A stretch of 64,000 nt of DNA from a virus (IMGVR_UViG_3300049926_000042:23316-87315); one strand, 5' to 3'. Positions 10,668-55,978 are shown, counted from the first letter of the stretch. A program made the numbers and translations. Notes: generated by a model not told the origin, from the sequence alone.

Positions 10668-11215
10668 CGACCCGTGCCAGCTGGTACGCCGAAAACGGTG
10701 GGACGCTCGGGCCTCCCGTCGTCCCCCTAGGCTCGATCGGTCTCACCCAGATCCATGGAGGCGTCGGCCGGGCCATCCGGGCCGGGCAGTGGATGCTCGG
10801 TGACGGCTTCAAGGACTACGAACACGCCTTCGTGTACGTCGGTGGATACCGGATCATCGAAGCAGAGCCCGGCGGAGCCCTCCGCTCCAGTCTCGGCCGG
10901 TACAACCCGGAGAAGATTCTCTGGCTGCGGTGCCCACCCGAGTTCGGAGAGGCAGTAGCCGCTGCCGCCGTTGCCTTGATCGGCACCCCGTACAGCTTCG
11001 CCGACTACGGAGCGATCAGTGCCCACCGTCTGCACATCCCGATGCCTCATCTAGATCATTTCATTGAGACGTCGGGGCATCTCATCTGCTCGCAGCTCGC
11101 CGACCGCGCCGCAGACAAGGGTGGCTGGCACCTCTTCAACGATGGTCGTTGGGTGGGCGATGTCTCCCCCGGCGACATCACCAAGTTGGCACTTGCACAG
11201 GAGCTGGCCGCATGA
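10664..11215 (+). CDS. Permuted papain-like (YiiX/NlpC-P60) amidase
   Basis: HAFVYVGG..IIEAEPGG (His first), LIGTPYSF and LICSQL (Cys last). Confidence 0.7.
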   Translation: MTTRASWYAENGGTLGPPVVPLGSIGLTQIHGGVGRAIRAGQWMLGDGFKDYEHAFVYVGGYRIIEAEPGGALRSSLGRYNPEKILWLRCPPEFGEAVAAAAVALIGTPYSFADYGAISAHRLHIPMPHLDHFIETSGHLICSQLADRAADKGGWHLFNDGRWVGDVSPGDITKLALAQELAA

Positions 11216-11907
11216 TCTCTGTTCTGGTCCCCACCCGGGGACGCCCGCACAACATGCGCCGGATGGTCGATTCCGGCCGGGAGACCTCGACCGGCCAAGT
11301 CGAGTACGTGTTCTACATCGACGACGATGACCCGGCGTCGGTCGAGATGGCCTCGACTCTGCATCACGAGAAGGCAGACGTCTTCTGGATCACCGGCCCC
11401 CGGATCCTGATGTCGTCGATGTGGAACGAGTGCCAGAAGTGCGCGCGGTATGACGTCTACCAGCACTCGTGCGACGAGACGATCTATCGCACCGTGGGCT
11501 GGGACACCGCAGTGCTGGCCGCGATGGACGAATGGCCGGACAAGATCGGTCTCGTGTACGGCCGCGACGGCATCCACGATCAAGCACTGGCCACCCACGG
11601 CTTCATCACCCGTAACTGGGTCGAGGCCGTCGGCTACTTCGTACCGCCCTACTTCAGCTCCGACTACAACGATCTCTGGCTGCATCAGGTGGCAGAGGCC
11701 GTCGGCCGGTTGCACTTCCTGCCTGAGGTCTACACGGAGCACATGCATCCGGCCGTCAACAAGGGTCCGCTCGATCTCACCCACCAGGAACGTCTGACGC
11801 GTCACGGGCAAGACGGCGTGGACGCTCTGTACGCCTCTCTGGCGGGCAAACGGAACGAGGACGTGGAGAAGCTCACGGAGGCAATCCAGAAGGCACAGGT
11901 GGCATGA
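11212..11907 (+). CDS. Glycosyltransferase, GT2-like
   Basis: ISVLVPTRGRP, YIDDDD, and FITRNWVEAVG...YNDLWL. Confidence 0.75.
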   Translation: MISVLVPTRGRPHNMRRMVDSGRETSTGQVEYVFYIDDDDPASVEMASTLHHEKADVFWITGPRILMSSMWNECQKCARYDVYQHSCDETIYRTVGWDTAVLAAMDEWPDKIGLVYGRDGIHDQALATHGFITRNWVEAVGYFVPPYFSSDYNDLWLHQVAEAVGRLHFLPEVYTEHMHPAVNKGPLDLTHQERLTRHGQDGVDALYASLAGKRNEDVEKLTEAIQKAQVA

Positions 11908-12818
11908 TGCGCGTTCTCGTAACGGGTGCCCAGGGGTTCGTCGGCGGCTATCTCGCCGACGCCCTGCGGCGTGACGATCACGAGGTCTGGGGGTTCGACA
12001 CCCGGGGTGCCTTCAGACACGACATCAGGGATTACGAGGCCGTCCACTCAATGATCTCCCGAGCGGAGCCTGATCTGATCTTTCATCTCGCGGCCGTGGC
12101 TTGGCCGGGGGAATCACTACGTGACCCCCGCCGGGTGATGGACGTCAATCTCGGGGGAACCGCCAACCTGCTGGACGCGGTCAGGGTCACCGGCTCACAC
12201 GCCAAGATCTTGTTGGCCGGTACCTCGGAAGAGTACGGCTACGAAGGTCACCCGGAAGGCACCGTTCTCGACGAGGAGACGACGTGCCGACCGATGACCC
12301 CTTACGGGGTGAGCAAGCTCGCAGCGACGACTCTGGGCATGGTGTACGCCCGCCGGTACGGCTTGCACGTCGTGGCCACACGAGCGTTCAACCACACGGG
12401 ATGGGGCCGCCAGGCAGTCAATGCCGAGTCCTCGTTCGCCCGCCGGATCGTCGCCTTCGAGCGCGGGGAGACCACCAGCGTCAGCCACGGCGATCTCTCC
12501 GCCATGCGGAACTTCACTGACGTCCGCGATGTCGTCCGGGCATACAAGGCAGTGATCCTCGCGGATCCCGGCATCTACAACGTGTGCTCGGGCAACACAG
12601 TGACTATGCAGCAGGTCATGGACACGCTGGTCGAGATCGCCTCGGAGGACAGCCGGACCCCCGTGATCCTGAAGGAGGATCCCGCTCTGGTTCACAAGGA
12701 CGCGGGGATCTTCCCGATCCCGACGTTCGACAAGCTTCATCAGGCGACCGCATGGATCCCGGAGATCTCCCTGGAGGAGACCCTGAAGACTGTTCTTGAG
12801 TACTGGAGGGGCCGATGA
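11904..12818 (+). CDS. GDP-mannose 4,6-dehydratase-like NAD-dependent epimerase/dehydratase
   Basis: VLVTGAQGFVG Rossmann motif, SEEYG, PYGVSK (YxxxK), RAFNHTG and RNFTDVRDVV. Confidence 0.85.
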   Translation: MMRVLVTGAQGFVGGYLADALRRDDHEVWGFDTRGAFRHDIRDYEAVHSMISRAEPDLIFHLAAVAWPGESLRDPRRVMDVNLGGTANLLDAVRVTGSHAKILLAGTSEEYGYEGHPEGTVLDEETTCRPMTPYGVSKLAATTLGMVYARRYGLHVVATRAFNHTGWGRQAVNAESSFARRIVAFERGETTSVSHGDLSAMRNFTDVRDVVRAYKAVILADPGIYNVCSGNTVTMQQVMDTLVEIASEDSRTPVILKEDPALVHKDAGIFPIPTFDKLHQATAWIPEISLEETLKTVLEYWRGR

Positions 12819-14023
12819 CCATCTGCCGGAGCTGCAACGGGACGTGCACCGAAGTACTCAATCTCGGTGATCACCGGCTGTCGGATTTCGTCGAGCCTGT
12901 CCAGATGGGAGGGATCACTGCCTTCCCACTGCGGATGGTGATCTGCAATGACTGCTCGTTGCTCCAGCTCGCCGACACGACTCCCCGGAACCTGCTCTAT
13001 CACGATCGCTACGGCTTCCGATCCGGCACCAACGAGGCCATCCGCGCCGATCTGGCGGACGTCGTCCAGTACGCGCTGGCCGAGTCAACCGGCACAGTCG
13101 GCAACTGGCTCGACATCGCCTGCAACGACGGCACCCTGCTCTCGTTCGTCCCGAAGGACGTCCAGACATGGTGCATCGATCCGGTGATGGCGATCGTCCG
13201 CGATGCCGTCAAACACGCCGACGTCACGATCGGCGATTACTTCCGGCCGTCGTACTTCGATCACGAGAGATTCAACGTGATCACCTCGGTCTCGATGTTC
13301 TACGATCTCGACGACCCGAACGAGTTCGTGGCTGGGGTCGCCGGTGTGCTGGCATCCGACGGCATCTGGGTGATCCAACAGAACTACGCGGCGGACATGC
13401 TGGCCCGCAACGCGGTCGACAACATCTGCCATGAGCACGTGACTTACTTCAGCGTGGAGTCTCTGCTGCCTCTGCTGGAGCGTCACGGGCTGGAGATCAA
13501 TGACGTCACCTACTCGGACGTCAACGGCGGGTGCTTCCGGGTGCTGGTCACCCATCACGGCAACCGGGCCATCAACAGCTCGGTCGGAGAGGCATTGGCC
13601 AACGAGGGCAAACGCAAGCTGGCCCGGCCGGAGACCTGGCAGGCCTGGGGGCGTGCGGTGGTCGATGAGCTGAGTCTCACCCGGAAGGCTCTGCTCAGAG
13701 CCAAGGAGCGCGGCGAGCGTGTCTTTCTGTACGGCGCGAGCACTCGGGGAGGAACCTTCCTCCAGATGATCGACGCCGGGCCGGACCTGCTTCCGTACGC
13801 GGTCGAGCGCAACCCCGACAAGTTCGGGAAGATCATGGCCAGTACAGGCATCCCGATCATCTCCGAGCAATCCATGCGCGATGATCCTCCGGACGCTCTG
13901 CTCGTGAGCCCGTGGTTCTTCCGCGAGGTCTTCCTGAATCGCGAGGCCACCTACCTCGACGGTGGCGGCGTGATGATCTTCCCCCTCCCGCACTTCGAGA
14001 TCGTCGGAGGCGATCATGATTAA
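12815..14023 (+). CDS. NDP-hexose C-methyltransferase (Zn domain, SAM domain and C-terminal domain)
   Basis: CRSC...CNDCSLLQL, LDIACNDGTLL, SMFYDLDDP, ICHEHVTYFS and YGASTRG. Confidence 0.85.
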   Translation: MTICRSCNGTCTEVLNLGDHRLSDFVEPVQMGGITAFPLRMVICNDCSLLQLADTTPRNLLYHDRYGFRSGTNEAIRADLADVVQYALAESTGTVGNWLDIACNDGTLLSFVPKDVQTWCIDPVMAIVRDAVKHADVTIGDYFRPSYFDHERFNVITSVSMFYDLDDPNEFVAGVAGVLASDGIWVIQQNYAADMLARNAVDNICHEHVTYFSVESLLPLLERHGLEINDVTYSDVNGGCFRVLVTHHGNRAINSSVGEALANEGKRKLARPETWQAWGRAVVDELSLTRKALLRAKERGERVFLYGASTRGGTFLQMIDAGPDLLPYAVERNPDKFGKIMASTGIPIISEQSMRDDPPDALLVSPWFFREVFLNREATYLDGGGVMIFPLPHFEIVGGDHD

Positions 14024-14831
14024 CCGAGGACAGGCCAACTCTTCGGAGTTCAACCGGTCAGGGCTCAACTGGAACGATCAAGTTCAGGCGTGGTCACATC
14101 CGCCGGTCGACGACGTCGGCTACATCTCCTCCGAGGTCATGCTGAGCTGGAGTGACACCAAGCTCCGCGAGACGATCGAAGCCATGCGCCGTGTCCGATA
14201 CGAAGGGTGGCGCAATCACGACGGCTTGTGGCGCGAGCTGATGGGTCTGGACGACGTCCGTGGCAAAGACGTCCTGGACTTCGGGTGCGGGACCGGCATC
14301 GAAGCAGCCGAGTTCGTCCGTGGCCACAACCGGGTCAGTGTCGCTGATCTGTCCCCGGTGAATCTCCGGCTGGCCACCAGGGTCATGAAGCTGACGGCAC
14401 CGGCCGAGTCGATCATCCCGGCCTATCTGGTCGGGTGTCTGCCGCCGTACTTCGAGACCAACAGTGCCAGGTTCGACGTCGTCCACTGCTCCGGAGTGTT
14501 GCACCACATCCCGTGGGCGCACGCGATCATGAAGAGGTTCTGGGAGATCCTCCGGCCCGGCGGACAGGTCAGGCTGATGCTGTATTCCGACGTCGGGTGG
14601 ACGATCGCGACCGGCAGCAACCCACCGGCGGGACGTCCGTCCGAACACCCGGACTTCATGAAGTTCGTCCGGTACTTCGATGCAGTCGGCGAGTACGCCG
14701 ACTGGTACAGCCTGGCGAAGATCAATAACACCTTCGGGGACATGTTCTCCCTCGATCAGTTCGCCTATCTCACGGTCGATCAGCGCTACTGCGCGGCCGT
14801 CCTCACCAGGAAAGGAAACGTGGGGATGTGA
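14016..14831 (+). CDS. Class I SAM-dependent methyltransferase
   Basis: VLDFGCGTG, FDVVHCSGVLHHI and LRPGG. Confidence 0.8.
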   Translation: MINRGQANSSEFNRSGLNWNDQVQAWSHPPVDDVGYISSEVMLSWSDTKLRETIEAMRRVRYEGWRNHDGLWRELMGLDDVRGKDVLDFGCGTGIEAAEFVRGHNRVSVADLSPVNLRLATRVMKLTAPAESIIPAYLVGCLPPYFETNSARFDVVHCSGVLHHIPWAHAIMKRFWEILRPGGQVRLMLYSDVGWTIATGSNPPAGRPSEHPDFMKFVRYFDAVGEYADWYSLAKINNTFGDMFSLDQFAYLTVDQRYCAAVLTRKGNVGM

Positions 14832-16102
14832 CCACAGTCGGAGTCGTTGGACTCGGCAAGCTCGGGCTCATGCTCGCGATGGTGCTGGACAAGCACGGCA
14901 AGTATGACGTCGTCGGCTATGACCCGACCACCAACCCCAACGGGATCCTGTCCGGCCGAGTCCCCCCTCCGCAAGAGGAGGGGATCGCGGGACTGATCGA
15001 GGACTCCAAGATTCAGCTCGCGCCGGTGCCGAGCGCCGTCGTACGAGCCACGGATGACGTGATCTTCGTCGTGGTGCAGACCCCTCATCTGCCGGATTAT
15101 GACGGCACCACACCGTTGACCGGACCACCGGCCGACTTCGAGTACGGGTTCCTGGTTCAGGCCGTCCGGGACATCTCGAAGGCAGCACGCGAGCAGGGGA
15201 AGCCGGTCACCATCGTGATCGTCTCCACCGTCCTGCCGGGCACGATCAACCGCCTGATCCGGCCGTTGCTCAATGACATGACCACCCGGCTGGTCTACAG
15301 TCCTTCGCTGATCGCGCTGGGGCAGGTGAGAGCAGACCTCCTCGACCCGGAGTTCGTCATTATCGGCACCGACGATCACGCCGACGCTCGCTCGGTGATG
15401 GAGATATATGCGACCCTGCATGACCGGCCGTTCCAGATCATGAGCATCGAGTCAGCAGAGCTGACCAAGATGGCGTACAACACCTTCACCAGCCTGAAGA
15501 TCGTGTTCGCCAACACGATCATGGAACTGGCCCACAAGACAGGGGCAGACTGCGACGCGGTCACAGATGCCCTCTCGCTCGCGACCCGCAACCTACTCTC
15601 CCCGGCCTATCTCCGTGGCGGCATGGGTGGTGGCGGCTACTGTCATCCGCGTGATGTCGTGGCGATGTGGCATCTGTCGTCTCAGCTGAATCTGTCCGGT
15701 GATCTGTTCGGGTTCCTGCACGGCGCACGCGAAGATCAGTCGTCCTGGCTGGCCGACGTCACCGAGCACTGGGCCATGCTGACCGGACTACCGATCGCGA
15801 TCTTCGGCACCTCCTATCGGCCGGAATCATCACTGACCGGCGGGAGCGCATCCCTGCTGCTTCACAATCAGCTGATCGAACGTGGACTGGACGTCCAGTC
15901 CTGGGATCCAATCGCGGACGGCGGCCGGTCGATCAAGGTGTCGTCGAACACCGTCGCCAACGTCCCCCGGGTCTACGTGATCGCGACCAACCACCGGGAT
16001 TTCCGGACGGTCGCCTTCGCCCCCGGATCAGTGGTGATCGATCCGCACGGCAACATCCCGGATGCCCCCGGCGTGACCGTGGTCAAGATCGGGAGAAAAT
16101 GA
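14828..16102 (+). CDS. UDP-glucose/GDP-mannose dehydrogenase family protein
   Basis: VGVVGLGKLG, FVVVQTP, STVLPGT, AELTKMAYNTF and GGGYCHPRD. Confidence 0.85.
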   Translation: MTTVGVVGLGKLGLMLAMVLDKHGKYDVVGYDPTTNPNGILSGRVPPPQEEGIAGLIEDSKIQLAPVPSAVVRATDDVIFVVVQTPHLPDYDGTTPLTGPPADFEYGFLVQAVRDISKAAREQGKPVTIVIVSTVLPGTINRLIRPLLNDMTTRLVYSPSLIALGQVRADLLDPEFVIIGTDDHADARSVMEIYATLHDRPFQIMSIESAELTKMAYNTFTSLKIVFANTIMELAHKTGADCDAVTDALSLATRNLLSPAYLRGGMGGGGYCHPRDVVAMWHLSSQLNLSGDLFGFLHGAREDQSSWLADVTEHWAMLTGLPIAIFGTSYRPESSLTGGSASLLLHNQLIERGLDVQSWDPIADGGRSIKVSSNTVANVPRVYVIATNHRDFRTVAFAPGSVVIDPHGNIPDAPGVTVVKIGRK

Positions 16103-16680
16103 TGATCTCTGGTGTGACCGCCGTCGTTCCCGTGCATCTGCCACGGCTGCGCAGTGGGATCTTCGATCGGGCCATCGAGTCGATCGAGTGGCAGACTCGG
16201 CCGGTGGACGCCATCAGCATCTCCGTCGACACGACACATGCCGGAGCAGCCAAGACGCGCAACCGGGCCTTGGCCGGGGTCACCACACAGTGGTCGGCCT
16301 TCCTCGACTCGGACGATCAGTGGAGGCCGAACCACATCGCCGCCCTGATGGATCACGCGGAGAAGACCGGAGCCGATCTGGTCTATCCGTGGTTCACGGT
16401 CCCCGAGGGCTGGGATCCCTTCCCGCAGTTCGAGGGCCAGCCTTTCAGCGCGAAGGCTCTGGAGACCCAGAACTACATCCCGGTCACCGTGCTGGTCCGC
16501 ACCGATCTGATCCGAGAAGTCGGAGGATTCCAGCCGAAGGGACCGCCGGAGAACCCTTGCGACGATTATGGGGCCTGGGACGCTCTGCTCCGGGCCGGAG
16601 CGAAGTTCTCCCATCTGAACATGCGCACGTGGTACTGGCACTGGGGCGACAACACCAACGGACGAGGAGACGTGTGGTGA
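16099..16680 (+). CDS. Glycosyltransferase, GT2-like
   Basis: GAAKTRNRAL, AFLDSDDQWRPNHI and CDDYG. Confidence 0.8.
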   Translation: MMISGVTAVVPVHLPRLRSGIFDRAIESIEWQTRPVDAISISVDTTHAGAAKTRNRALAGVTTQWSAFLDSDDQWRPNHIAALMDHAEKTGADLVYPWFTVPEGWDPFPQFEGQPFSAKALETQNYIPVTVLVRTDLIREVGGFQPKGPPENPCDDYGAWDALLRAGAKFSHLNMRTWYWHWGDNTNGRGDVW

Positions 16681-16835
16681 AGAAAAAATCAAGGCTCGCC
16701 CGATGGTGGTGCGGAGTGTGGACTGGACACAACTTCCTTCCGGAAGGCCACCAGTGGAAGTGTCAGTACTGCGGAGAGCAGCCGGAGCCATTCACCCTGC
16801 CAGCACCGCCACCGCCAGGGAGTGAGAGGCGATGA
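16674..16835 (+). CDS. Small Cys/His protein
   Basis: WWCGVWTGH...CQYC; coupled within the operon. Confidence 0.35.
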   Translation: MVKKKSRLARWWCGVWTGHNFLPEGHQWKCQYCGEQPEPFTLPAPPPPGSERR

Positions 16836-16956
16836 TCTACCGAGCACTGATCCAAACGTTCTGGGTTTTCGTGCCGCATCCGTTCGTCATGGAAAGCCAG
16901 TTCGCATCAGCCGTCTGCCGACGCTGCGGCTTCGTTCACTGGGGAAAGTGGTTCTG

Positions 16957-17613
16957 ATGGGCCAGCACAAATACAACAAGGGACAGCGGCACCTCACCGT
17001 GGCCGTCTGCATCCCGACCATCCCTGATCGTGAACTTCAGCTCGTGCGCGCAGAGCTGAGTGTCATGACGCAGCGGCGGCAGCCGGACCAGCTGCTGATC
17101 GAAATGGACTCCGAGCGCACTGGCGCGGCGGCCACCAGAAACCGGCTGCTCCGCCAGGTCACGACCGACGTGATCGCCTGGCTGGACGATGACGACGCCA
17201 TGAAAGACAACCACCTCATGGCGTGCATGCGGGTTCTGGAGCAGAACCCATCGGTGGATCTCGTCTACCCTCGGCCGGTCATGATCGGTGGCACCGACCC
17301 GACGGCCACCACCCGGGGAGGGATCTTCCCCGTCAGCCCGTGGGGGCTCCGCTTCGGACCCGAGCAGGCGGCCCACATCAGGCACGTCGGGAGTTTCATC
17401 CCGATGACCCATCTGGTCCGCACGGAAGCAGTCGACCGGATCAACGGATTCCCCGAGGGCAGAACGCTGCCGAACGGCCGGTACCAGGGCGAGGACGAAC
17501 GCTACCTGATCAATCTCCTCGACGACGGAGCGACCTTCGAACATCTGGACCGCCCGACCTGGTACTGGCACGTGAACCAGAGGTCGACGGCCGGGAAGGG
17601 GCTACCGAGATGA
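16957..17613 (+). CDS. Glycosyltransferase, GT2-like
   Basis: VAVCIPTIPDR, GAAATRNRLL, AWLDDDD and GEDERY; paralogous to 16099-16680. Confidence 0.8.
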   Translation: MGQHKYNKGQRHLTVAVCIPTIPDRELQLVRAELSVMTQRRQPDQLLIEMDSERTGAAATRNRLLRQVTTDVIAWLDDDDAMKDNHLMACMRVLEQNPSVDLVYPRPVMIGGTDPTATTRGGIFPVSPWGLRFGPEQAAHIRHVGSFIPMTHLVRTEAVDRINGFPEGRTLPNGRYQGEDERYLINLLDDGATFEHLDRPTWYWHVNQRSTAGKGLPR

Positions 17614-17837
17614 TCAGCCTGGAGTTCAAGGACGGCAATCTCTATCACGAGGACGGTCGCCTCTACACCGGCCCGAGGGTCTTCAGCTCAGGTGACTATC
17701 TGCCTGACGTCAGGGCGGAGCTGGTGACCGGCCTAAGGGCTTTGCCCGGCGTGGCCAACGATCCCCACACAGTGCCGGACATCATGTCTCTGGTGGACAC
17801 CTACGTCCGCCGGGCGAGGGGACACCATGACGAATAG
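17610..17837 (+). CDS. Hypothetical protein
   Basis: ATGA overlap with the upstream glycosyltransferase. Confidence 0.45.
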   Translation: MISLEFKDGNLYHEDGRLYTGPRVFSSGDYLPDVRAELVTGLRALPGVANDPHTVPDIMSLVDTYVRRARGHHDE

Positions 17838-19200
17838 CACCAACGAGAGCGGACAGGTGATCATCCGCCGCATCGTGGATGAGGACACACTCCGGGAAGC
17901 TCTCGACGCGATGGCGGAGCTGAGGACAGTTGTCCGCCGTCTGTCCTCCGCCTTCAGTGAAGCTGTCCGTGTCCTTGACGAAGGGGACACGGGACAGGAC
18001 ACCGAGGACACCGACCCGCCGTCTCTGTCCTTCGTCCTGTGTCCTGTCCCGATCCACGCATGGGGAGGGACACACCCGCATCAGTGGACAGGACCGGCCG
18101 GACAGCTATGGATGTGTCCTGGCGCATAACTGTCCCTGTCCCGTCCTTGTCCCCTCTGTCCGCTGGACAGGGGGGACACTCTTATGGCCTACTGGACGGA
18201 TCGAACCAATCGAATCATTGGCTGTCCGGAAGGTGGGGGACATGAGGCGTCCCGAATGGACGAAGCGTCACGTTGTCCCGGCAGGGACAGGACGTGTCCC
18301 CTGGTGGGTCAGGAAGGCCGTGGACATCGGGACACCGGTGGCCGTCGTCATGATGATGGTGCTGTGTGCGCCCGGTGAGCAGCACCTAGCTCACCTCGCT
18401 GGCTGGACGACTCACATGGCCTGGCTTTTGTCCGGCCTCGTGGTCGCCTACGCGGGCATCGCGGCCGTGGAAGCCACTTCCCGGCCCCCCGGTGCCAAGG
18501 GCAAATTCTCGGCCGTCCTGGGTGCCGTTGTGGCCCTCGGACTGGCCATGGCCGCACAGCCCATCAGTCACCTGTTCGTCACCGACTGGCTGTCGGCCAG
18601 TCCGCGTGCCCCTGTCTGGTTGATCGTGTCCGTGTCCTGTGTCCCGCCCTTGATCGTCGGACACCTGCTCCACCTGTCCGCGTCCCGTCCCGGTGTCTCC
18701 GTCCCGTCTGTGTCCGATCACGTAGGCCATGTCCTGTCCCTCATGGAGGAGGGACACGTCCGTGTGTCCGAGGACTCCGGGATAGAGAGGCCCGTCAGTA
18801 CGTCCGACCTGATGTCCGCGTTCGGGATCAGTGACAGGACAGAGGGACGGGACATGACGGCTGCTGAGTTCGACGGCGAGGGACAGAACGTCTCGGACGT
18901 CCCGGTCGTCCCGGATCCGGACTGGAGTGGCGGACGTCCCGTCCCGTCCCGGGACGAGGACAGCACCGGGACACAGTCGGACAGCTGGTACGAGGATGAC
19001 GGACAGCTCCGGCTGGCCGAGTCCAGTCCTGTCCCGCCCCGGACATGGGGGGCCGGTGTCCAGGACAGTGCCTCGGTTCGTGTTCGCCGGACAGCGGACG
19101 GATCCATGACGTCAGTCGTCAAGAGCGAGTTGTCCCGGGACGAGAACATTTCGGATGACGAACTTCGGGACATCCTGCGGGACAGGTTCGGACAGGACAC
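17790..19200. repeat. Region saturated with GGACA/TGTCC pentamers
   Basis: Dozens of copies in both orientations, e.g. GGGACACGGGACAGGACACCGAGGACA (about 17984-18010) and CTGTCCCTGTCCCGTCCTTGTCCCCTCTGTCC (about 18130-18161). Confidence 0.85.
17827..18129 (+). CDS. Hypothetical protein, possibly an Spd accessory protein
   Basis: ORF lying in the GGACA-rich block directly upstream of the SpdB-like gene. Confidence 0.4.
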   Translation: MTNSTNESGQVIIRRIVDEDTLREALDAMAELRTVVRRLSSAFSEAVRVLDEGDTGQDTEDTDPPSLSFVLCPVPIHAWGGTHPHQWTGPAGQLWMCPGA

Positions 19201-19258
19201 GAAGACCAATTCGATCAGCAAGGCGATCAAGAGGGCACGGGAGGCGATGAGCGCATGA
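18242..19258 (+). CDS. SpdB-like plasmid spread membrane protein
   Basis: Four TM helices with CAPGEQHLAHLAGW...AYAGIAA...SAVLGA..AL.LA..AQ.ISHL, followed by a low-complexity tail; immediately upstream of TraB. Confidence 0.65.
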   Translation: MRRPEWTKRHVVPAGTGRVPWWVRKAVDIGTPVAVVMMMVLCAPGEQHLAHLAGWTTHMAWLLSGLVVAYAGIAAVEATSRPPGAKGKFSAVLGAVVALGLAMAAQPISHLFVTDWLSASPRAPVWLIVSVSCVPPLIVGHLLHLSASRPGVSVPSVSDHVGHVLSLMEEGHVRVSEDSGIERPVSTSDLMSAFGISDRTEGRDMTAAEFDGEGQNVSDVPVVPDPDWSGGRPVPSRDEDSTGTQSDSWYEDDGQLRLAESSPVPPRTWGAGVQDSASVRVRRTADGSMTSVVKSELSRDENISDDELRDILRDRFGQDTKTNSISKAIKRAREAMSA

Positions 19259-21183
19259 GCCGGAGTCGGACCAACAACATGACCGACGAGTCGATCAAGA
19301 TTCAGCGGAGGGGGTACATGCCGATGCGTTACCGCATCGGTCCCTTCGTCACTCCGTGGCTGCTGATCGCCGGGGTCTTCATCACCTCCGCGATCACTCA
19401 CGCGTTCTGCTCCGGGCCACTGGCCTTGATGTTCCTGGCATTCACGATCGCCGGTCTGGTCTGGGTCACCTGGACCACCTGGGACCGCAGGCACAAGCAC
19501 GCGCGCAACGCAGCAACCGCCTTCGCGGCCGTCATGGGCGTCTGGCTGGCCACAGCCACGGCCACCTCCCCGATCTGGCCGCCGATGCTGTACGCGTTCG
19601 CCATGGGCGGTGGCTTCATGGCCCTGACCTGGGACATCAGGTACGCGGGGATCACCCCGAGCAACAAGCACGACCGGATGGCCGGAGACATGGCCAACCC
19701 CTACGAGGCGATCAAGCGCCTGAAGGACGCCGTCCCGGTCAAGGTCAAAGAAGGCAACGGCAAGGTTCAGATCATCCTTCAGCACCACAAGGGCAAGTCG
19801 ACGACGGCAGACGTCCAGGCGGCCCGCGAGAACATCGCGGGCATCCACGCCGTGGACGGAAACTCTGTGTCTGTGGCCAAGGTCAAGGGCAGGGGCGACC
19901 AGACCGGGATCACAGTGCGGATCGACGACCCGACCGAGCAGGTGGTCAGGTGGCCGGGAGTCTCCGCCCCGGGCAAGAGCATCGCCGACGCGCCGCTCCG
20001 CATCGGTGTCCGCGAGGACGGACAGCCCATGTCCTTCTGGGTGACAGGTGACGATCTGCTGTCCCGCGCCGCCCCTCACACCCTCTGGACTGGGATGACA
20101 GGGTCCGGCAAGACTGCGGCGTTCATCCTGGGCACGCTGGAGATGATCTCCCGCATCGACTGTGCCCCGGTGGTCGCCGACCCCGAGAAGTTCATGCTGT
20201 CCTTCGGCGGTGTGATGGACGCGTTCGCCATCGCCGCCGATGGCCCGGAGCAGACCGAGCAGTTGATCGCCAACCTGCCCCCGGCACTCCGCTATCGGGC
20301 CAGCCTGCTGGGGTCTCTGGGGTACGAGCAGTGGGAACCGGAGTGCTGGACGAAGTACGGCATCCCGGTGGTGCCGGTTCACATCGAGGAGGCGGCCGGA
20401 TATCTGGCCACGAACAAGGACTTCAACAAGGCGATCATCCTGGCGCGTGCACTCGGCATGCCGATCAGCGCGTCACTCCAGGTCGCAGTGTTCCGCAACC
20501 TCCAGCGTGAGGCCCGGAGCCAGTTCGGCAACTCGATCGCGTTCGGTGTGAAGGAGAAGCAAGACGCTCAGTTCGCCCTCACTGACGGCACCCTGAATGC
20601 CGGTGCGGACCCCACTCGGTGGGGCAACAACGAACCCGGCCGTTGCTACGCGGAGACCGTCGGTGTGCCTTCCGAGGAATGGGCGGTCAAGGCCCGTACC
20701 TTCAAGATCACACCGGCTGAGCGCAGGGCTTCGATCGAGATGGCCGACGAGGCAGGCCGGGCACGTATAGATGAAGGCACGTTCGACCTGCTCAGCAGGG
20801 GTATCCACCGGCCGGTGCGGATGGTCGGAGTTCCCCAGATTCCGGATCTCTCGCAGGCTCCGACGGTTGAGCTTCCGACCGTCGCTGACCGGCCGACCTT
20901 GACCATGGTCAAGAACGAGGAGGTCCCGGGGGAGCGTCCCCCGCCGGACGTCGCCCGGGAAATGATGATGGACCGGCTGAGCGAGCTGGAGGACGCGGGC
21001 AAGACGATCGTGGTTGTGGCCGATTTCGCCCCGGTGGCCGATCTGCTGGAGCGTCACCGGACCTGGCCCTACACCGAACTCCGCCGGATTGAGAGGACGG
21101 GCCGGGTGGAGAAGGTCAAGGAAGTGGCAGGTCAGTGGCGTATCGTGCCCAAGGCCATGATCAAAGATCAAGAAAAAATGTAG
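19255..21183 (+). CDS. traB: TraB-like FtsK/SpoIIIE conjugal DNA translocase of Streptomyces plasmid type
   Basis: N-terminal TM helices after IGPFVTPWL; Walker A HTLWTGMTGSGKT; Walker B-like VHIEEAA; C-terminal wHTH-like segment. Confidence 0.8.
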   Translation: MSRSRTNNMTDESIKIQRRGYMPMRYRIGPFVTPWLLIAGVFITSAITHAFCSGPLALMFLAFTIAGLVWVTWTTWDRRHKHARNAATAFAAVMGVWLATATATSPIWPPMLYAFAMGGGFMALTWDIRYAGITPSNKHDRMAGDMANPYEAIKRLKDAVPVKVKEGNGKVQIILQHHKGKSTTADVQAARENIAGIHAVDGNSVSVAKVKGRGDQTGITVRIDDPTEQVVRWPGVSAPGKSIADAPLRIGVREDGQPMSFWVTGDDLLSRAAPHTLWTGMTGSGKTAAFILGTLEMISRIDCAPVVADPEKFMLSFGGVMDAFAIAADGPEQTEQLIANLPPALRYRASLLGSLGYEQWEPECWTKYGIPVVPVHIEEAAGYLATNKDFNKAIILARALGMPISASLQVAVFRNLQREARSQFGNSIAFGVKEKQDAQFALTDGTLNAGADPTRWGNNEPGRCYAETVGVPSEEWAVKARTFKITPAERRASIEMADEAGRARIDEGTFDLLSRGIHRPVRMVGVPQIPDLSQAPTVELPTVADRPTLTMVKNEEVPGERPPPDVAREMMMDRLSELEDAGKTIVVVADFAPVADLLERHRTWPYTELRRIERTGRVEKVKEVAGQWRIVPKAMIKDQEKM

Positions 21184-21204
21184 ATGTATGTAGAAGGTGC
21201 ATCG

Positions 21205-21281
21205 GTGTAAGGGGCTGTGAACCGGTCCGTGAACCAGGGTGTGATCATCCTGTGATCGGACCGGTGAATTGATGAGTGATC
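21205..21281 (+). repeat. Phased GTGA(A/T)(C/T) repeat array, candidate clt (TraB-recognition) locus
   Basis: Hexamers start at 21217, 21229, 21241, 21252, 21264 and 21276, with a degenerate GTGTAA at 21205; 11-12 bp period just 3' of traB. Confidence 0.6.
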
Positions 21282-21329
21282 GACTCCCAAGCTGGGGGTC
21301 CACGCGAAGTAAACGAGGAGGATCACAGG

Positions 21330-21725
21330 ATGCCCACCGAGGAAGATCGAGTACGCCTCGCGGAGATCGTGGAGTACACCCGCCATGATCTTGCGCGCCG
21401 GGATGCGGCTGCCGATGTCGTCCCGGGCGGAGCGCAGCACGTGCACATCCATCACCACTACGCGCCGCCCCCGGCCCCCGTGCCGGTGCCCGAGATGGAC
21501 ATCGCGAGCAGGTACGCCGGGCACTTCGTCCTCGCGGTGTGGGCCATGATCGCCATGGCCGGGGTCGCAGTCGTCTTCGTCATGATCGCGCAGGCGCTCA
21601 TGATCGCGATGATCTCCCTGGCGATCTGCGCTCTGGCCTTCGCGGCGATGATCAAGTCTCTGCGCTACAGCAAGATCGACAAGCAGCTGGCGGACCAGCG
21701 CTCTCGCGGGCGCACGCGTAAGTGA
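21330..21725 (+). CDS. Small two-TM protein, Spd-like
   Basis: HVHIHHHYAPPPAP followed by a long hydrophobic hairpin; GAGGAGG RBS. Confidence 0.55.
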   Translation: MPTEEDRVRLAEIVEYTRHDLARRDAAADVVPGGAQHVHIHHHYAPPPAPVPVPEMDIASRYAGHFVLAVWAMIAMAGVAVVFVMIAQALMIAMISLAICALAFAAMIKSLRYSKIDKQLADQRSRGRTRK

Positions 21726-21740
21726 GAGAGCGAGCACATG

Positions 21741-21773
21741 GATGCCCCCGGCCTACCGGCTGGGGGCATCTTT
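21741..21773 (+). terminator. Intrinsic terminator closing the tra/spd block
   Basis: GATGCCCCC-GGCC / GGCT-GGGGGCATC followed by TTT. Confidence 0.7.
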
Positions 21774-21840
21774 GGTCTAAAGAATCTTGAACTATTTTCT
21801 GGCACCCCCTCTGAGCTGCGACGATGCACCATAAGATCAT

Positions 21841-21869
21841 TTGACATGGGGAATGGCCCGCTGTATGTT
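21841..21869 (+). promoter_or_regulatory. Strong sigma70/HrdB-type promoter
   Basis: TTGACA (21841-21846), 17-bp spacer, TATGTT (21864-21869). Confidence 0.75.
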
Positions 21870-21876
21870 TGTGTTG

Positions 21877-22330
21877 TACCGAAAGAACAACAACAGAACA
21901 GCGGGAGCGGCACCGGGAGACCAGAAGATCATCTAGGAATGATCGAATCGCCCGGCCACCGCAGAAAGATCGAAAGATCCCCGCCAACTGATCCATAAGG
22001 TATCGGCCCTAGATGACCGAAGCGCTCGGAGATAAGGCCCCCGAAAAGGCTAAGACCGCAGCAGAGACCATCGACAGAGTCTCGAAACGAAAAGCCGAAA
22101 GGCGAGCAAGATGATCGAATCCCCCGGTCGATCCCGGGGGCGATCATGCTTCACCGGCCGCCGCCGTGATCACCGGGTTCGCTCGTACCCCTAAACGATG
22201 CTAGATCGAGTCGGCGGCCAGCATGCTTCGAGGGCAGACAGTATGAGCCGGTTCGAATCCGGCCCGAAGCACTAGATCAGCGCGACGACGAGAGGCATCG
22301 TTCCTCAATCGCAAGTCGCGCTGATCTTCA
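21877..22330 (+). ncRNA. Candidate structured leader or ncRNA
   Basis: No convincing ORF; multiple hairpins including GNRA loops GATC-GAAA-GATC (21968-21979) and GCC-GAAA-GGC (22094-22103), and stems 22111-22147 and 22274-22327. Confidence 0.45.
22225..22271 (+). ncRNA. tRNA minihelix-like element (acceptor stem and T arm only)
   Basis: GCTTCG pairs with CGAAGC-A; T arm GCCGG-TTCGAAT-CCGGC; only about 15 nt where the D and anticodon arms should be. Confidence 0.5.
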
Positions 22331-22352
22331 CCTACGGACCAAGGAGCCGATC

Positions 22353-36064: not shown

Positions 36065-36985
36065 TCAGGGGCCTTCCGTGACGGTGATGTTGAGCTTGAG
36101 GGTCTCCAGCTTGGCGGCGATCTCCGCCGGAAGCTGGGAGAGATCGATGGCCGCGAGCGTCGCCTTGATCTCGGTGAGCGAAGATCCGTTCATGGCGGCT
36201 TGCGCGAGAGTGTCCCTGGCGGCCTGCTCGGCTGCACTGGCCAGGTCGTACGCACCTCGCAGAACGTTGCGCGGGAGTTGGTTGGCGTTGGTCAGCTTGT
36301 CCGGAGCAGTGTCCGGAGCGGGCATCCTGTCCTGATCCCAGACCTGGCTGTAGACCAGTGCCTTGATCTTCGCGTCCACGATCTTGTTGACCTCTGCGGA
36401 AAACCACGTCTTGTCCGCCGGTGTGAGCGCCACGTCGTCTATCCCTCCAGCCCATGCGAGCATGCTGGCCCGCGAGTCGAATTGTGCCACGTCGTGATCG
36501 ATGCCACCGGCTGTCGAGTACTGGTGGAGCAGCCACGCCGAAGTGATGTTGGGTGATCCGGCCGGATATCCGGCGGTCGCGATCCACAGGCCGTCACCGG
36601 CGAAACTGCTCCGGTCGAGGCTCTTCCAGAAGTAGCCGTTGCAGTAGAGCACGACTCGATGGCCGGTGCGCCCCTGTACGTAGGAGATCCACGCGTCCTT
36701 TTCGGCACTGGACACGCCGGTGTCTTCCCAGTCCAGACAGAGGACGTCTCCCGGGGAGAGAGCCACCTGCGACAGCATGTGATCAGCCTGACTGATCATG
36801 TTGCCGGGCCGGACGAAGTGATAGAAGCCGATCACCAGTCCTGCGTCACGGCCGGTCTGCCGTTGCTGAACCCACTTCGGGTTGACGTACGACGTACCCT
36901 CGGTCAGCTTGATGAACACGAAGTCGATGCCGGATTCCCAGCCGGACGCCGCCTGATAGTTGGAGACATCCACTCCCTTGATCAT
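36065..36985 (-). CDS. Endolysin, GH25 muramidase
   Basis: GVDVSNYQ, FIKLTEG, GFYHF, LDWED, LWIA and HQYS...DHD. Confidence 0.9.
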   Translation of the reverse strand: MIKGVDVSNYQAASGWESGIDFVFIKLTEGTSYVNPKWVQQRQTGRDAGLVIGFYHFVRPGNMISQADHMLSQVALSPGDVLCLDWEDTGVSSAEKDAWISYVQGRTGHRVVLYCNGYFWKSLDRSSFAGDGLWIATAGYPAGSPNITSAWLLHQYSTAGGIDHDVAQFDSRASMLAWAGGIDDVALTPADKTWFSAEVNKIVDAKIKALVYSQVWDQDRMPAPDTAPDKLTNANQLPRNVLRGAYDLASAAEQAARDTLAQAAMNGSSLTEIKATLAAIDLSQLPAEIAAKLETLKLNITVTEGP

Positions 36986-44900: not shown

Positions 44901-45399
44901 AGCTCGCCATGACGCTGGTCATGGCGTTGGTGACGTCCGCCAGGTTCGCGTTCTCCTCCTTCGCGCCCTGTGCCGCAGCCTTCAGCACCTTCAGGCCACC
45001 GGCCCCCCGGAACCCGGCCTTCTCGATGGTGTACATACCATCGGTCAAGTTCTTGATCCCCGTACCGGTGCCCTTTGAGATGTCGAGGATGCCTGACCGT
45101 ACGACCTTCAGACCCTTGGCAGACTCACCGGCCGCCGTCTGGAGAACAGCAGTCTCAGCTTGGAAATCACCGGCCATTTTGACAGCGGCCACGGCCACAC
45201 CAGCGCCGACGAGAGTGACGCCCTTGCCGATCTTGGCCATGGACGGAAGGACGGTAGCGGCGGCAGCCTTCAGGCCACGGGTGGACCCGTCCAACTGAGA
45301 CCGGGCCGTCCGCATGGACGTCATGAGCTGAGGACCGAACTTTTTGAAATCCGGGAGGATCTCTACGAGACCCCGGCCGACGATCTCAGTTGCCGCCAT
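41995..45399 (-). CDS. Tape measure protein with C-terminal lytic transglycosylase
   Basis: TP901-type N-terminal region, TM/aromatic repeats, and SLT motifs MQQESGGNP...GLMQVI..TF. Confidence 0.9.
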   Translation of the reverse strand: MAATEIVGRGLVEILPDFKKFGPQLMTSMRTARSQLDGSTRGLKAAAATVLPSMAKIGKGVTLVGAGVAVAAVKMAGDFQAETAVLQTAAGESAKGLKVVRSGILDISKGTGTGIKNLTDGMYTIEKAGFRGAGGLKVLKAAAQGAKEENANLADVTNAMTSVMASYHLKVTDSVRVMNALKTSAGEGKITMEEFSSALSTVLPIASANKISFEEVGGAIATLTQHGTSAREATQELAATIRQLAAPNNVAMREMQRFGLSANDVSMNLGKRGLTGTFDLLTSTILSKMGPSGKILLSAFEGTKQSAKNAQIELGKMPPELKKVAKGYLEGKISLEDWNQNMKDVDVRQAPMLRNFKTLVDRSHGFSRELKSGGPDAKTYTDALRKMSGGAIGLNTILQLTGESMAGFKERVKKTGESFHNGSKDVEGWAITQNLFNTRMQRLKQTLDVLMIQIGTKLLPVVGALMGFFADNQGVVVGLIGTFAGLLGIFAAVYIGMKLYAVYTGIAAAATWAFSTANGASRAQMLGLRIQMAALWAQEKAMVAVAGVAAAAQWVWNLSIGSTSAALIATRVQLAALVVWQRIQAIGTGIATAAQWAWNIAMEANPIGLVIMAVGLLVGAILYIAGRTTWFETAWKYTWNAIKVAAFAVWHAMQAVWDGLVIGYHAVLDAGKAVWRWIKVNWPYLIGMLGGPFGIAVVYIIKHWGQAKSFIIDAWNSIYRNVVQPIIHFFTSTIPGAANAMKNGMVRAFRSTLIFVLDVFGNILKGAAKIFGWVPGVGGKLKSAVRAFQNFRDSVNKALGGVSGKTVNVPVSFRTVGGTKIFTRAGGGAIEKGATGTSTSDSNVVLMSKGEHVWSAKEVQGAGGHSAVSDMRAAAKSGNLPAFANGGTLGARFTGIPSYNRIKGAMAKAVRAEIDLHKKALFNSLPMAMVASGVAGGGSAPKGGANHWRSLVITMLQMVGQSTGLVNTVLRRMQQESGGNPNIVNKWDSNWKAGHPSVGLMQVIAGTFRAYAGKYRNTGPFSYGVSVNPAANIYASFRYALSRYGSLSNAFNRAGGYDRGGKLMPGWTAAWNGTGRPETVRTAAQESALGGGGSITIVLENHGVIGSQAEVKNWLVKALDDLAHAHRLPKSITG

Positions 45400-55890: not shown

Positions 55891-55949
55891 GGTAACCTCC
55901 GACGGATGAGCCGGTACGAGCAGAGCAATGGACGTAGATCTTCGGGCGC

Positions 55950-55978
55950 AAGGTAGCACCGAAATTCCAGAACTCCAA
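55950..55978 (-). promoter_or_regulatory. Possible capsid promoter
   Basis: TTGGAG-17 bp-TACCTT on the - strand, downstream of a hairpin at about 56041-56080. Confidence 0.35.

What the first reader, a model, noticed from the sequence alone, without database searches (positions are those of the whole stretch)
17827..21773. A virion-encoding phage genome carrying a Streptomyces-type conjugation module (SpdB-like, TraB, clt-like array, Spd-like)
Seen: a co-oriented block of a four-TM SpdB-like gene, a full-length FtsK/SpoIIIE translocase with intact Walker A (GMTGSGKT), a phased repeat array and a small TM gene, closed by a terminator. It sits in the same contiguous sequence as portal, capsid, tail and lysin genes, and no Rep, integrase or excisionase lies inside the block. 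Established: Streptomyces plasmids and AICEs transfer dsDNA using TraB alone acting on a clt locus, with Spd proteins aiding intramycelial spread. Inference: this may be a phage or phage-plasmid that moves both as a virion and by hyphal conjugation. The two ParB-like genes at 5.2-6.9 kb would fit an extrachromosomal prophage state.
Basis: partly seen in the sequence, partly recalled or inferred. Interest (0 to 1): 0.88.

Follow-up and report, generated by a model that had tools for sequence, protein, structure and literature searches.

The report
Phage-borne TraB DNA pump with docking arrays
An 87-kb tailed phage of a filamentous actinomycete carries, as an inherited part of its genome, the one-protein DNA pump (TraB) and docking repeats that Streptomyces plasmids use for mating, plus a membrane protein that appears to read a second, very dense DNA-word array; it may therefore spread between hyphae without virions, an idea with one laboratory precedent (pZL12).

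Summary
At 18242-21771 there is a co-oriented block: a four-helix membrane protein, a full-length TraB (NCBIfam plasmid_TraB E 3e-112, FtsK-motor fold, intact Walker A/B, C-terminal winged helix), six phased GTGAWC repeats starting 34 bp after the traB stop, a small two-helix membrane gene and a strong hairpin. The same circular 87-kb assembly has portal, head, tape-measure and lysin genes.

It is not a chimera or an inserted element. About 35 other complete or large phage contigs carry the same block, as do a 98.8-kb plasmid and 92-96-kb contigs of Streptomyces isolates. Their TraBs form one clade, apart from plasmid and chromosomal TraBs.

Two additions:
- The post-traB repeat array is conserved in place and phase, exactly where pJV1, pSN22 and pWTY27 have their clt.
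- A second array of 63 GGACA words (14-fold excess) spans 17.75-19.25 kb. Its word changes between lineages together with the C-terminal three-helix domain of the membrane protein, not with TraB.

"SpdB-like" is architecture only. The ParB argument is weak, and the genome has no integrase or ParA. Transfer is untested. pZL12 is a published functional precedent, and this scan has met phage-borne TraB modules many times on other DNA. Verdict: a new variant of a known kind.

The parts
17750..19254 (.). Array A: 63 copies of GGACA (50 of them GGACA[CG]) on both strands and in all three frames. There are two lobes (17777-18334 and 18627-19199) on either side of the stretch that encodes the membrane helices.
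   Evidence: 63 copies against 4.4 expected from the rest of the genome (14-fold, Poisson P about 1e-49). It is the only such cluster in the 87-kb genome. Relatives have an array in the same place.
17827..18129 (+).
   Evidence: tblastn found no homologue in 26 related loci. GC3 is 0.69. Its Cys-Pro and Trp-Thr runs are what the GGACA/TGTCC words encode.
18242..19258 (+). 338-aa membrane protein: four transmembrane helices, a disordered acidic linker (about residues 176-284) and a C-terminal three-helix bundle (289-337), the candidate reader of array A.
   Evidence: AF2 model m24e1c518ba7e gives pLDDT 94-97 for the bundle. The membrane domain is 45-62% identical in 14 loci and the C-terminal 55 aa 47-50%. 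The sequence of the last helix changes together with the array-A word. No Pfam, PHROG or NCBIfam hit.
19255..21183 (+). traB: 642-aa membrane-anchored FtsK-like dsDNA translocase with a C-terminal winged helix.
   Evidence: NF041214 plasmid_TraB E 3e-112, 376 bits, below the equivalog cut-off of 800. phrog_24831 E 1e-57. tblastn hit 51 actinomycete plasmids. AF2 pLDDT 80. Foldseek best hit is the FtsK motor 6t8b, E 1e-14, TM 0.66. Walker A and B are invariant in alignment A1.
21217..21281 (+). Array B, clt-like: six direct GTGA[AT][CT] repeats (wider consensus sTGTGAwC) spaced 11-12 bp, starting 34 bp after the traB stop.
   Evidence: unique in the window. Phased arrays lie in the same position in most relatives. 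The clt repeats of pJV1, pSN22, pWTY27 and pSSPS4.7b lie directly after their traB stop (PMC3583192).
21330..21725 (+). 131-aa protein with a His-rich N-terminal part and two adjacent transmembrane helices; conserved partner gene.
   Evidence: AGGAGG lies 7 nt upstream. tblastn homologues follow traB in 11 loci, and 2-TM ORFs of 75-145 aa follow traB in nearly all loci. No family hit.
21740..21771 (+). Terminator-like hairpin that closes the block.
   Evidence: 14-bp stem, -35.2 kcal/mol, z -4.98, 0 of 200 shuffles as stable. The U tract is weak, so the consensus scan missed it.

Best explanation
The block is a working Streptomyces-plasmid-type double-stranded-DNA translocation module that belongs to the phage itself. 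It is neither an insertion nor an assembly artefact.

Proposed mechanism, all inferred:
1. TraB sits in the membrane through its N-terminal helices and forms an FtsK-like ring.
2. Its C-terminal winged helix docks on the six phased repeats just after its own gene (array B, the clt equivalent).
3. The motor then pumps the unprocessed phage or phage-plasmid genome across a hyphal wall or septum, into a neighbouring hypha or the next compartment.
4. The upstream four-helix membrane protein uses its cytoplasmic C-terminal three-helix domain to bind the roughly 60 GGACA words in and around its own gene (array A). This holds that stretch of the genome at the membrane beside the pump. It would be a sequence-specific counterpart of the non-specific DNA binding reported for SpdB2.
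5. The small two-helix protein is a further membrane partner.

The result would be virion-independent spread, added to ordinary infection by particles.

Shown here: homology, fold, motifs, conservation, position of the repeats, and covariation of the array-A word with the C-terminal domain. Inferred: DNA binding by either protein, complex formation, and transfer itself.
For: TraB identity:
- NF041214 E 3e-112.
- Full-length 26-33% identity to 51 actinomycete plasmid TraBs, including pJV1, pSN22 and pWTY27.
- FtsK-motor fold, four N-terminal helices and a C-terminal winged helix.
- Walker A, Walker B and many motor residues invariant in 29 relatives.

Native to the phage:
- 88 protein relatives, many on 78-89-kb contigs.
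- 26 plus about 10 further IMG/VR loci with the same order of GT2 gene, membrane protein, traB and small membrane gene.
- Four tested relatives also have this head protein and portal at 52-60% identity.
- The phage-family TraBs form one clade (SH-aLRT 100, stem length 1.08), apart from plasmid and chromosomal TraBs.

Array B:
- It is unique in the window.
- Phased arrays of 4-9 copies lie directly after traB in most relatives. Chains of 4 or more occur in 13 of 26 loci against 22 of 1379 background windows.
- The position is the same as the experimentally defined clt of pWTY27 and pJV1 (PMC3583192).
- Some relatives use GTGTCA, the reverse complement of the pWTY27 TGACAC(C) repeat.

Array A and its candidate reader:
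- 14-fold excess of the word.
- About 30 loci whose last helix reads S(I/L/V)xK(A/S)Ix(R) have GGACA arrays.
- Three loci with a GETV...IRxWKxR C-terminus (L007, L024, L079) have CGTCYC arrays, although their membrane domains are of different types.
- Two loci with GDSIRAHRxALR (L015, L022) have CGARAG.
- L016, L028 and L076 each have their own word and their own helix.
- The TraB winged helix is nearly identical between L014 (GGACA) and L022 (CGARAG).
- The three-helix bundle is predicted at pLDDT 94-97.

Precedent: pZL12, and the remark by Thoma et al. [quoted passage not shown]
Against: - No transfer, binding or expression data exist for this phage or any relative.
- The TraB score is below NCBI's equivalog cut-off (376 against 800 bits).
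- The window's clade lacks the TraA homologue that precedes traB in pSN22, pJV1, pWTY27 and the more distant phage clades. It also lacks a GntR TraR/KorA repressor beside traB.
- The membrane proteins have no detectable homology to plasmid Spd proteins.
- The three-helix domain matches no curated HTH family, and Foldseek found nothing for the whole model.
- Covariation rests on about six word switches and could reflect another, unseen partner exchanged together with that domain.
- This genome has no integrase or ParA, so a stable donor state, which classical conjugation needs, is not evident.
Confidence: 0.6

Rival explanations
1. The module serves maintenance rather than spread. TraB and the membrane anchor act like FtsK/SpoIIIE with a centromere (array A), clearing or pumping copies of an extrachromosomal prophage through closing sporulation or vegetative septa. 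Every spore or compartment then inherits the element. The module would be a partition substitute, not a transfer system.
For: TraB has the fold of a septal DNA translocase. A dense array of about 60 sites bound by a dedicated protein resembles a centromere more than the 4-9 repeats of a plasmid clt. The window genome has no ParA. Relatives occur as stand-alone replicon-sized contigs or plasmids in Streptomyces isolates.
Against: pS1D4-14.2 has the module and also a ParA, so the module does not simply replace partition. The protein groups with conjugative plasmid TraBs and keeps a clt-type array in the clt position. In plasmids, the same proteins that spread DNA between compartments also mediate transfer (PMC4447253), so the two roles are not exclusive.
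Confidence: 0.2
2. The module acts on other DNA or against competitors. It might mobilise host chromosome or co-resident elements, exclude superinfecting phages or plasmids at the membrane, or export DNA. The arrays would then be regulatory operators for a toxic gene (a kil-kor type control).
For: Array B overlaps the likely -35 region of a conserved promoter-like element (a TAAGAC/TAGGGA-type -10) in front of the small membrane genes in many relatives. Unregulated traB is toxic in plasmids (PMC4447253). No TraR-type repressor lies nearby, so an HTH-bearing membrane protein might be the regulator.
Against: About 60 sites spread over 1.5 kb, mostly inside coding sequence, is far more than an operator needs. 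Conservation across a whole phage family with co-evolving word and reader points to action in cis on the phage's own genome. There is no match to defence families, but PADLOC was not searched.
Confidence: 0.1
3. The block is foreign to the phage: an assembly chimera, or a recently inserted AICE or plasmid fragment.
For: None found. The block is a discrete unit that ends in a terminator, and its closest named relatives are plasmid genes.
Against: GC content and GC3 match the flanks. The same gene order, with the same upstream GT2 gene, occurs in more than 30 independent contigs and in isolate genomes. The TraBs form one deep clade that follows the phage family. There is no integrase, Rep or att-like flank.
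Confidence: 0.02

Closest known systems
TraB-clt transfer loci of small Streptomyces plasmids: pJV1 (NC_001759), pSN22 (NC_001425), pWTY27 (NC_013667), and pSVH1 as described in PMC4447253
   Same: The translocase is homologous over its full length (26-27% identity over 94%; NF041214). It has the same build: membrane anchor, FtsK-like motor, C-terminal winged helix. Short direct repeats begin right after the traB stop codon. Small membrane-protein genes lie downstream. Distant members of the phage family also keep a TraA-like gene in front of traB.
   Different: The carrier is an 87-kb virion-encoding phage, not a 10-15-kb plasmid. The score is below the equivalog cut-off. This clade has no TraA, no adjacent GntR repressor and no recognisable SpdB2/SpdA homologues. 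It adds a roughly 60-copy array A and a membrane protein with a C-terminal three-helix domain; neither was seen at the chromosomal TraB loci examined.
Streptomyces plasmid-phage pZL12 / phage ZL12 (GQ919031; Zhong et al. 2010, J Bacteriol 192:3747, known here only through PMC3583192, PMC4487206 and PMC7157519)
   Same: A roughly 90-kb Streptomyces element that is both a plasmid and a plaque-forming phage. [quoted passage not shown] This is the functional precedent for a phage that also mates.
   Different: Its FtsK-like gene (pZL12.71c) is not a close homologue (BLASTP E 0.07; NF041214 E 1.7e-4). tblastn of the window TraB against the phage collection, which holds pZL12, found nothing. pZL12 has ParA, ParB and an integrase; this genome has neither integrase nor ParA. 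The original paper is not held, so I could not read its details.
SpdB2 of pSVH1 (Thoma et al. 2015, PMC4447253)
   Same: [quoted passage not shown] It is reported to bind dsDNA, to interact with TraB and to be needed for spread between compartments. The paper notes homologues on some actinophages.
   Different: No sequence or profile similarity was detected. SpdB2 binds DNA non-specifically, whereas this protein appears matched to a specific word array. The language-model search gave only a weak lead to DUF2637 (0.86-0.89).
FtsK/SpoIIIE with KOPS/SRS recognition through the gamma domain
   Same: Motor fold (6t8b, 2ius) and a C-terminal winged helix that reads short repeated DNA words.
   Different: No Pfam FtsK_SpoIIIE hit even at E 10. 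The recognition sites form a local array beside the gene rather than being spread over a chromosome. The gene is encoded by a phage.

Membership tests
Streptomyces plasmid TraB (NCBIfam NF041214; pJV1/pSN22/pWTY27/pSVH1 type) | Sequence match to the curated model at or above its cut-off | tested here: not met
   376 bits, E 3e-112, covering model positions 5-480 of 639; the cut-off is 800 bits. It is a clear homologue but a divergent subfamily, not an equivalog.
Streptomyces plasmid TraB (NCBIfam NF041214; pJV1/pSN22/pWTY27/pSVH1 type) | N-terminal membrane anchor followed by an FtsK-like ATPase with intact Walker A and B | tested here: met
   AF2 helices 16-43, 47-70, 73-95 and 101-124. Motor domain matches FtsK 6t8b/2ius at E 1e-14, TM 0.6-0.66. 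GMTGSGKT and HIEEAA are conserved.
Streptomyces plasmid TraB (NCBIfam NF041214; pJV1/pSN22/pWTY27/pSVH1 type) | [quoted passage not shown] | tested here: met
   The AF2 model has an H-b-H-H-b-b-H topology at residues 556-633 with pLDDT 88-93. The motif RxRxW(V/I)Y..L is conserved across the family. Binding itself was not tested.
Streptomyces plasmid TraB (NCBIfam NF041214; pJV1/pSN22/pWTY27/pSVH1 type) | A cis-acting clt: several short direct repeats next to traB | tested here: met
   Six phased repeats at 21217-21281. Arrays lie at the same site in most relatives and in pJV1, pSN22, pWTY27 and pSSPS4.7b.
Streptomyces plasmid TraB (NCBIfam NF041214; pJV1/pSN22/pWTY27/pSVH1 type) | Mediates conjugal transfer and pock formation; TraB binds clt | not testable with these tools
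   Needs matings and EMSA in a cultivable relative.
SpdB2-type spread protein | Four transmembrane helices, encoded beside traB | tested here: met
   AF2 and hydropathy give four helices. The gene is translationally coupled to traB through an ATGA overlap.
SpdB2-type spread protein | Sequence homology to plasmid Spd proteins | tested here: not met
   tblastn against 72,556 plasmids found no match. hhalign against the 251-aa pSN22 protein encoded after clt gave probability 0.2. No Pfam hit in 22 members. pSVH1 SpdB2 itself was not available for comparison.
Phage-plasmid | A full set of virion genes | tested here: met
   Portal, MuF-like protein, major head, tape measure, endolysin and a likely large terminase.
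Phage-plasmid | Plasmid replication or partition functions and an extrachromosomal state | tested here: inconclusive
   In this genome no ParA was found and there is one sub-threshold ParB_N hit; Rep was not searched. The relative pS1D4-14.2 is listed as a circular 98,815-bp plasmid (PMC6753273) and has ParA and a tyrosine recombinase. Four Streptomyces isolates hold relatives on 54-96-kb contigs; two of these contigs have the same length as complete viral records of the family.
pZL12-type plasmid-phage | Homologous transfer genes | tested here: not met
   BLASTP of TraB against pZL12.71c gave E 0.07. The phage collection, which holds pZL12, gave no tblastn hit.
Chromosomal FtsK/SpoIIIE | Pfam FtsK_SpoIIIE (PF01580) domain | tested here: not met
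   No hit even at E 10. The likeness is at the level of fold only.

The most novel reading that the evidence does not exclude
In this clade, which shows no integrase and no ParA, the module may act as a phage 'movement' system. During infection, TraB would pump replicating phage genomes through cross-walls into neighbouring hyphal compartments or touching hyphae. A new kind of component would guide this: a membrane protein whose exchangeable C-terminal domain reads a roughly 60-copy word array and tethers the genome at the pore. That would be virion-free cell-to-cell spread of a bacterial virus, comparable to plant-virus movement proteins. It would also be the first sequence-specific membrane DNA anchor in Streptomyces-type conjugation.
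Probability: 0.3. Interest if true: 0.85.

Novelty: new variant of a known kind. Interest (0 to 1): 0.6.

Why it matters
Phage-plasmids are generally described as lacking conjugation machinery, and the only studied exception in actinomycetes is pZL12. Here a whole family of 75-99-kb tailed phages keeps the canonical small-plasmid TraB-clt system as a core, vertically inherited module. The family includes elements that already sit in culture-collection Streptomyces strains, and some members have no visible lysogeny genes.

If the module works, these viruses have two routes of spread in a mycelium. That bears on how phage infection propagates in compartmented hyphae and on gene flow in soil Streptomyces.

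The pairing of a dense word array with an exchangeable C-terminal domain of a membrane protein gives a concrete, testable candidate for how DNA is brought to the TraB pore. That step is still unclear for plasmids too.

Tried and rejected
- Megablast of the block and tblastn of TraB against the phage collection: no match.
- First related-locus scan with the single TraB protein: the patterns were too specific and found nothing.
- First genome-contig scan with A1: nothing. The second, with A3, gave 12 loci.
- The metagenome scan added only one locus.
- Pfam, PHROGs and NCBIfam on the membrane proteins: nothing.
- Foldseek on the four-helix protein model: no match at E 0.001 or better.
L014 (GGACA) and L022 (CGARAG) have near-identical TraB winged helices, and the word switches fall inside tight TraB subclades.
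- Array A as a by-product of a repeated peptide: rejected. The word occurs on both strands and in all three frames.
- The ~170-aa TraA-like gene of distant relatives fused into the window's membrane protein: rejected by BLASTP.
- Paralogues of either DNA-binding domain elsewhere in the genome: none.
- My recalled accession for pSVH1 turned out to be SLP2, so pSVH1 itself was not compared.
- The pZL12 paper (PMC2897331) and Vogelmann et al. 2011 (PMC3117642) are not held.
- The careful tree search did not finish; the quick IQ-TREE tree is reported.

Full report
WHAT THE WINDOW IS. The window is bases 23316-87315 of an 87,315-bp IMG/VR virus record that CheckV rates 96% complete. The first ~100 bases recur at 87195, just before a poly-G tail, so the assembly closes on itself. 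GC is 60-66% throughout, with no break at the block. The minus strand from 64 kb down to 34.7 kb encodes a likely large terminase, the portal (59530-61341), a MuF-like protein, the major head protein (54097-55959), the tape measure (41995-45399) and an endolysin (36065-36985). The plus strand from 0.3 to 34 kb carries an SNF2/PD-(D/E)XK protein, an AAA_24 ATPase, two ParB-like genes, a sugar-nucleotide and glycosyltransferase operon, then the block in question, then small genes and tRNAs.

OBSERVATION. The four-helix membrane gene most likely starts at ATG 18242 and overlaps traB by ATGA, which suggests translational coupling. TraB has GMTGSGKT and the Walker B HIEEAA, both conserved in 29 relatives. 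Six GTGA[AT][CT] repeats at 21217-21276 are spaced 12, 12, 11, 12, 12 bp. No other 4-mer anywhere in the 64 kb forms a phased chain of five or more. A 131-aa two-helix membrane gene follows, and a 14-bp-stem hairpin (-35.2 kcal/mol, z -4.98) closes the block.

THE TRANSLOCASE IS A PLASMID-TYPE TraB.
- Pfam finds no FtsK_SpoIIIE domain even at E 10. NCBIfam's plasmid_TraB model matches at E 3e-112, although at 376 bits it is below the equivalog cut-off of 800.
- tblastn finds 51 actinomycete plasmids (45 of them Streptomyces) at 25-33% identity, 23 of them over at least 80% of the length. They include pJV1, pSN22 and pWTY27, whose Tra proteins and clt sites have been studied (PMC3583192).
- An AlphaFold model (pLDDT 80) shows four N-terminal helices, a motor whose best PDB matches are FtsK motor domains (6t8b, 2ius; E 1e-14, TM 0.60-0.66), and a C-terminal winged helix.

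NATIVE TO A PHAGE FAMILY, NOT A CHIMERA.
- The big protein database holds 88 relatives, many on contigs of 78-89 kb.
- IMG/VR scans gave 26 and then about 10 further loci. Most share the order GT2 gene, membrane protein, traB, small membrane gene.
- Four tested relatives (84.5-98.8 kb, rated complete) also encode this window's major head and portal proteins at 52-60% identity.
- One of them is plasmid pS1D4-14.2 of Streptomyces sp. S1D4-14, listed as a circular 98,815-bp plasmid in the genome announcement (PMC6753273).
- Four further Streptomyces isolates hold close relatives on contigs of 54-96 kb. Two of these contigs (S. africanus NRRL B-24243 and Streptomyces sp. NRRL S-455) have the same length as complete viral records of the family.
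- In a quick maximum-likelihood tree, the 25 phage-family TraBs form one clade (SH-aLRT 100, stem length 1.08). It is separate from the small-plasmid TraBs and from chromosomal ones in Embleya, Yinghuangia and Streptomyces. The careful search did not finish and the root is arbitrary.

ARRAY B IS IN THE clt POSITION.
- In most relatives, 4-9 direct repeats spaced 10-13 bp start within a few dozen bases of the traB stop. The words are TGTGAG, TGTCAG, GTGTCA, CTGATCAG, CGTGATCAC or CGTCACAC, depending on lineage.
- In three or four relatives the array lies about 290 bp further on, behind an inserted hairpin and an AT-rich stretch.
- Phased 5-mer chains of four or more occur after traB in 13 of 26 loci, against 22 of 1379 background windows.
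- In pJV1, pSN22, pWTY27 and pSSPS4.7b the known clt repeats (CCGCACA, TGACACC) also begin directly after the traB stop. For pWTY27 the Tra protein was shown to bind them (PMC3583192).
- The word changes between TraB clades, but I cannot separate this from shared descent.

ARRAY A AND ITS LIKELY READER.
GGACA occurs 63 times in 17750-19254, on both strands and in all frames, against 4.4 expected (P about 1e-49). It is the only such cluster in the genome.
- It forms two lobes on either side of the segment that encodes the membrane helices, and it runs through the part that encodes the protein's disordered linker.
- Relatives have an array in the same place, often with 40-55 copies, but the word differs by lineage:
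  - GGACA in about 30 loci
  - CGTCYC in L007, L024, L025 and L079
  - CGARAG in L015 and L022
  - CGGTAC in L028
  - CCGCCA in L026
  - TCCGGA in L016
  - CTGAGC in L076
- The distant chromosomal TraB loci show no such array.
- The word does not follow TraB. L014 (GGACA) and L022 (CGARAG) have near-identical TraB winged helices, and the switches lie inside tight TraB subclades.
- The word does follow the last ~55 residues of the membrane protein, which AlphaFold predicts as a three-helix bundle at pLDDT 94-97. All GGACA loci share a final helix of the form S(I/L/V)xK(A/S)Ix(R), whichever of three membrane-domain types they carry.
- The three CGTCYC loci in which the membrane protein could be identified (L007, L024, L079) share a different C-terminus (GETV...IRxWKxR), although L007 and L024 have different membrane domains. 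Both CGARAG loci share a third type. Each singleton word comes with its own helix.
- With four helices and a basic N-terminus, the C-terminal domain should face the cytoplasm.
- I read this as a membrane-tethered, sequence-specific DNA-binding protein. That is an inference: no curated HTH family matches, and binding is untested.

LIFESTYLE. This genome has no tyrosine or serine recombinase and no ParA. One ParB-like gene has a sub-threshold ParB_N hit and the other is DUF6551. Among five relatives, three have a tyrosine recombinase, one of those also has ParA, and two have neither. The module is therefore kept whether or not lysogeny genes are visible.

MECHANISM AND RIVALS. The best-supported reading is a plasmid-type dsDNA transfer and spreading system acting in cis on the phage genome. 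TraB docks on array B and pumps, the membrane protein holds array A at the membrane, and the small membrane protein is a partner. Confidences for this reading and the rivals (septal segregation of a plasmid prophage; action on other DNA or exclusion with the arrays as operators; foreign insert or chimera) are given in their own sections. The first two readings are not exclusive, since in plasmids the same proteins serve both transfer and spread between compartments (PMC4447253).

WHAT IS KNOWN.
[quoted passage not shown] Its FtsK-like gene is only remotely related to this TraB.
- Thoma et al. [quoted passage not shown]
- Full-text searches found no paper describing a pJV1/pSN22-type TraB-clt module in phages.
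- This scan has noted phage-borne TraB modules many times on other DNA: 171 notes in at least 137 genomes. One is a ~95-kb Streptomyces phage-plasmid with about 60 TGTCCCG copies, which fits the GGGACA arrays I saw in the pS1D4-14.2 clade.
- What this report adds:
  - the separation of two arrays;
  - the monophyly of the phage TraBs;
  - the absence of integrase and ParA in this clade.

LIMITS. All function is inferred. Two key papers are not held.

Noticed in passing
window 21775-22352: A 580-bp non-coding stretch follows the terminator. It is rich in GATC-containing words (TGATC/GATCA) and has the only strong sigma-70-like match of the region (TTGACA, 17 nt, TATGTT at 21841-21869). It may be a regulatory region or an origin.
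   Followed up: no
L015/L001 (NZ_CP041606, pS1D4-14.2); L035 (S. africanus NRRL B-24243, 92,743-bp contig); L036, L037; L038 (Streptomyces sp. NRRL S-455, 95,726-bp contig): Replicon-sized contigs or plasmids of cultured Streptomyces strains are unrecognised phage-plasmids of this family. pS1D4-14.2 has the same head and portal proteins, TraB, a ParA and a tyrosine recombinase. PLSDB annotates it mostly as hypothetical and 'non-mobilizable'.
   Followed up: partly
L009 9450-9965, L013, L012, L007, L014, L018 (gene just upstream of traB): The more distant phage clades keep a ~140-290-aa soluble protein between the membrane gene and traB. It is weakly similar to plasmid TraA of pSN22 (E 2e-6 to 1e-3 in a small database). 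The window's clade has lost it or never had it.
   Followed up: partly
L035 about 1311-1775; L038 about 1322-1780 (2.2-2.7 kb upstream of traB): A ~150-aa gene ends in a copy of the TraB winged-helix motif (RPWI.GEL..LTDEGVL). This matches earlier notes of the scan on free-standing copies of TraB's DNA-reading head. No such paralogue exists in the window's genome.
   Followed up: partly
L003, L006, L008, L049: first ~290 bp after the traB stop: In the window's nearest relatives, a conserved insert separates traB from the phased repeats. It has a perfect hairpin followed by an AT-rich stretch (..GTAAGAATAAGAGAAG..). It could be a terminator plus a small RNA or a promoter. The window lacks it.
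   Followed up: no
window 11149-17613: A sugar-nucleotide and glycosyltransferase operon (GDP-mannose-dehydratase-like gene, C-methyltransferase, SAM methyltransferase, UDP-glucose dehydrogenase, GT2 genes) lies directly upstream. Its last GT2 gene (16822-17613) is the conserved left neighbour of the module in 22 related loci.
   Followed up: partly
genome 1-126 and 87195-87315 (window 63880-64000): The contig ends overlap by about 100 bases and the record ends in a poly-G run. The 'linear' record is therefore a closed or permuted genome with a sequencing artefact at its end.
   Followed up: yes
window 56229-59633 (minus strand): The 1134-aa MuF-like head protein has an N-terminal part that matches a PHROG annotated as RNA ligase (phrog_2659, E 7e-25, residues 60-242). 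This is an unusual fusion.
   Followed up: no
window 20005-20255 (inside traB): Five further GGACA words cluster 750-1000 bp into traB. Many relatives have 5-12 copies of their own array-A word in the first kilobase of traB, so array A may extend into the pump gene.
   Followed up: partly
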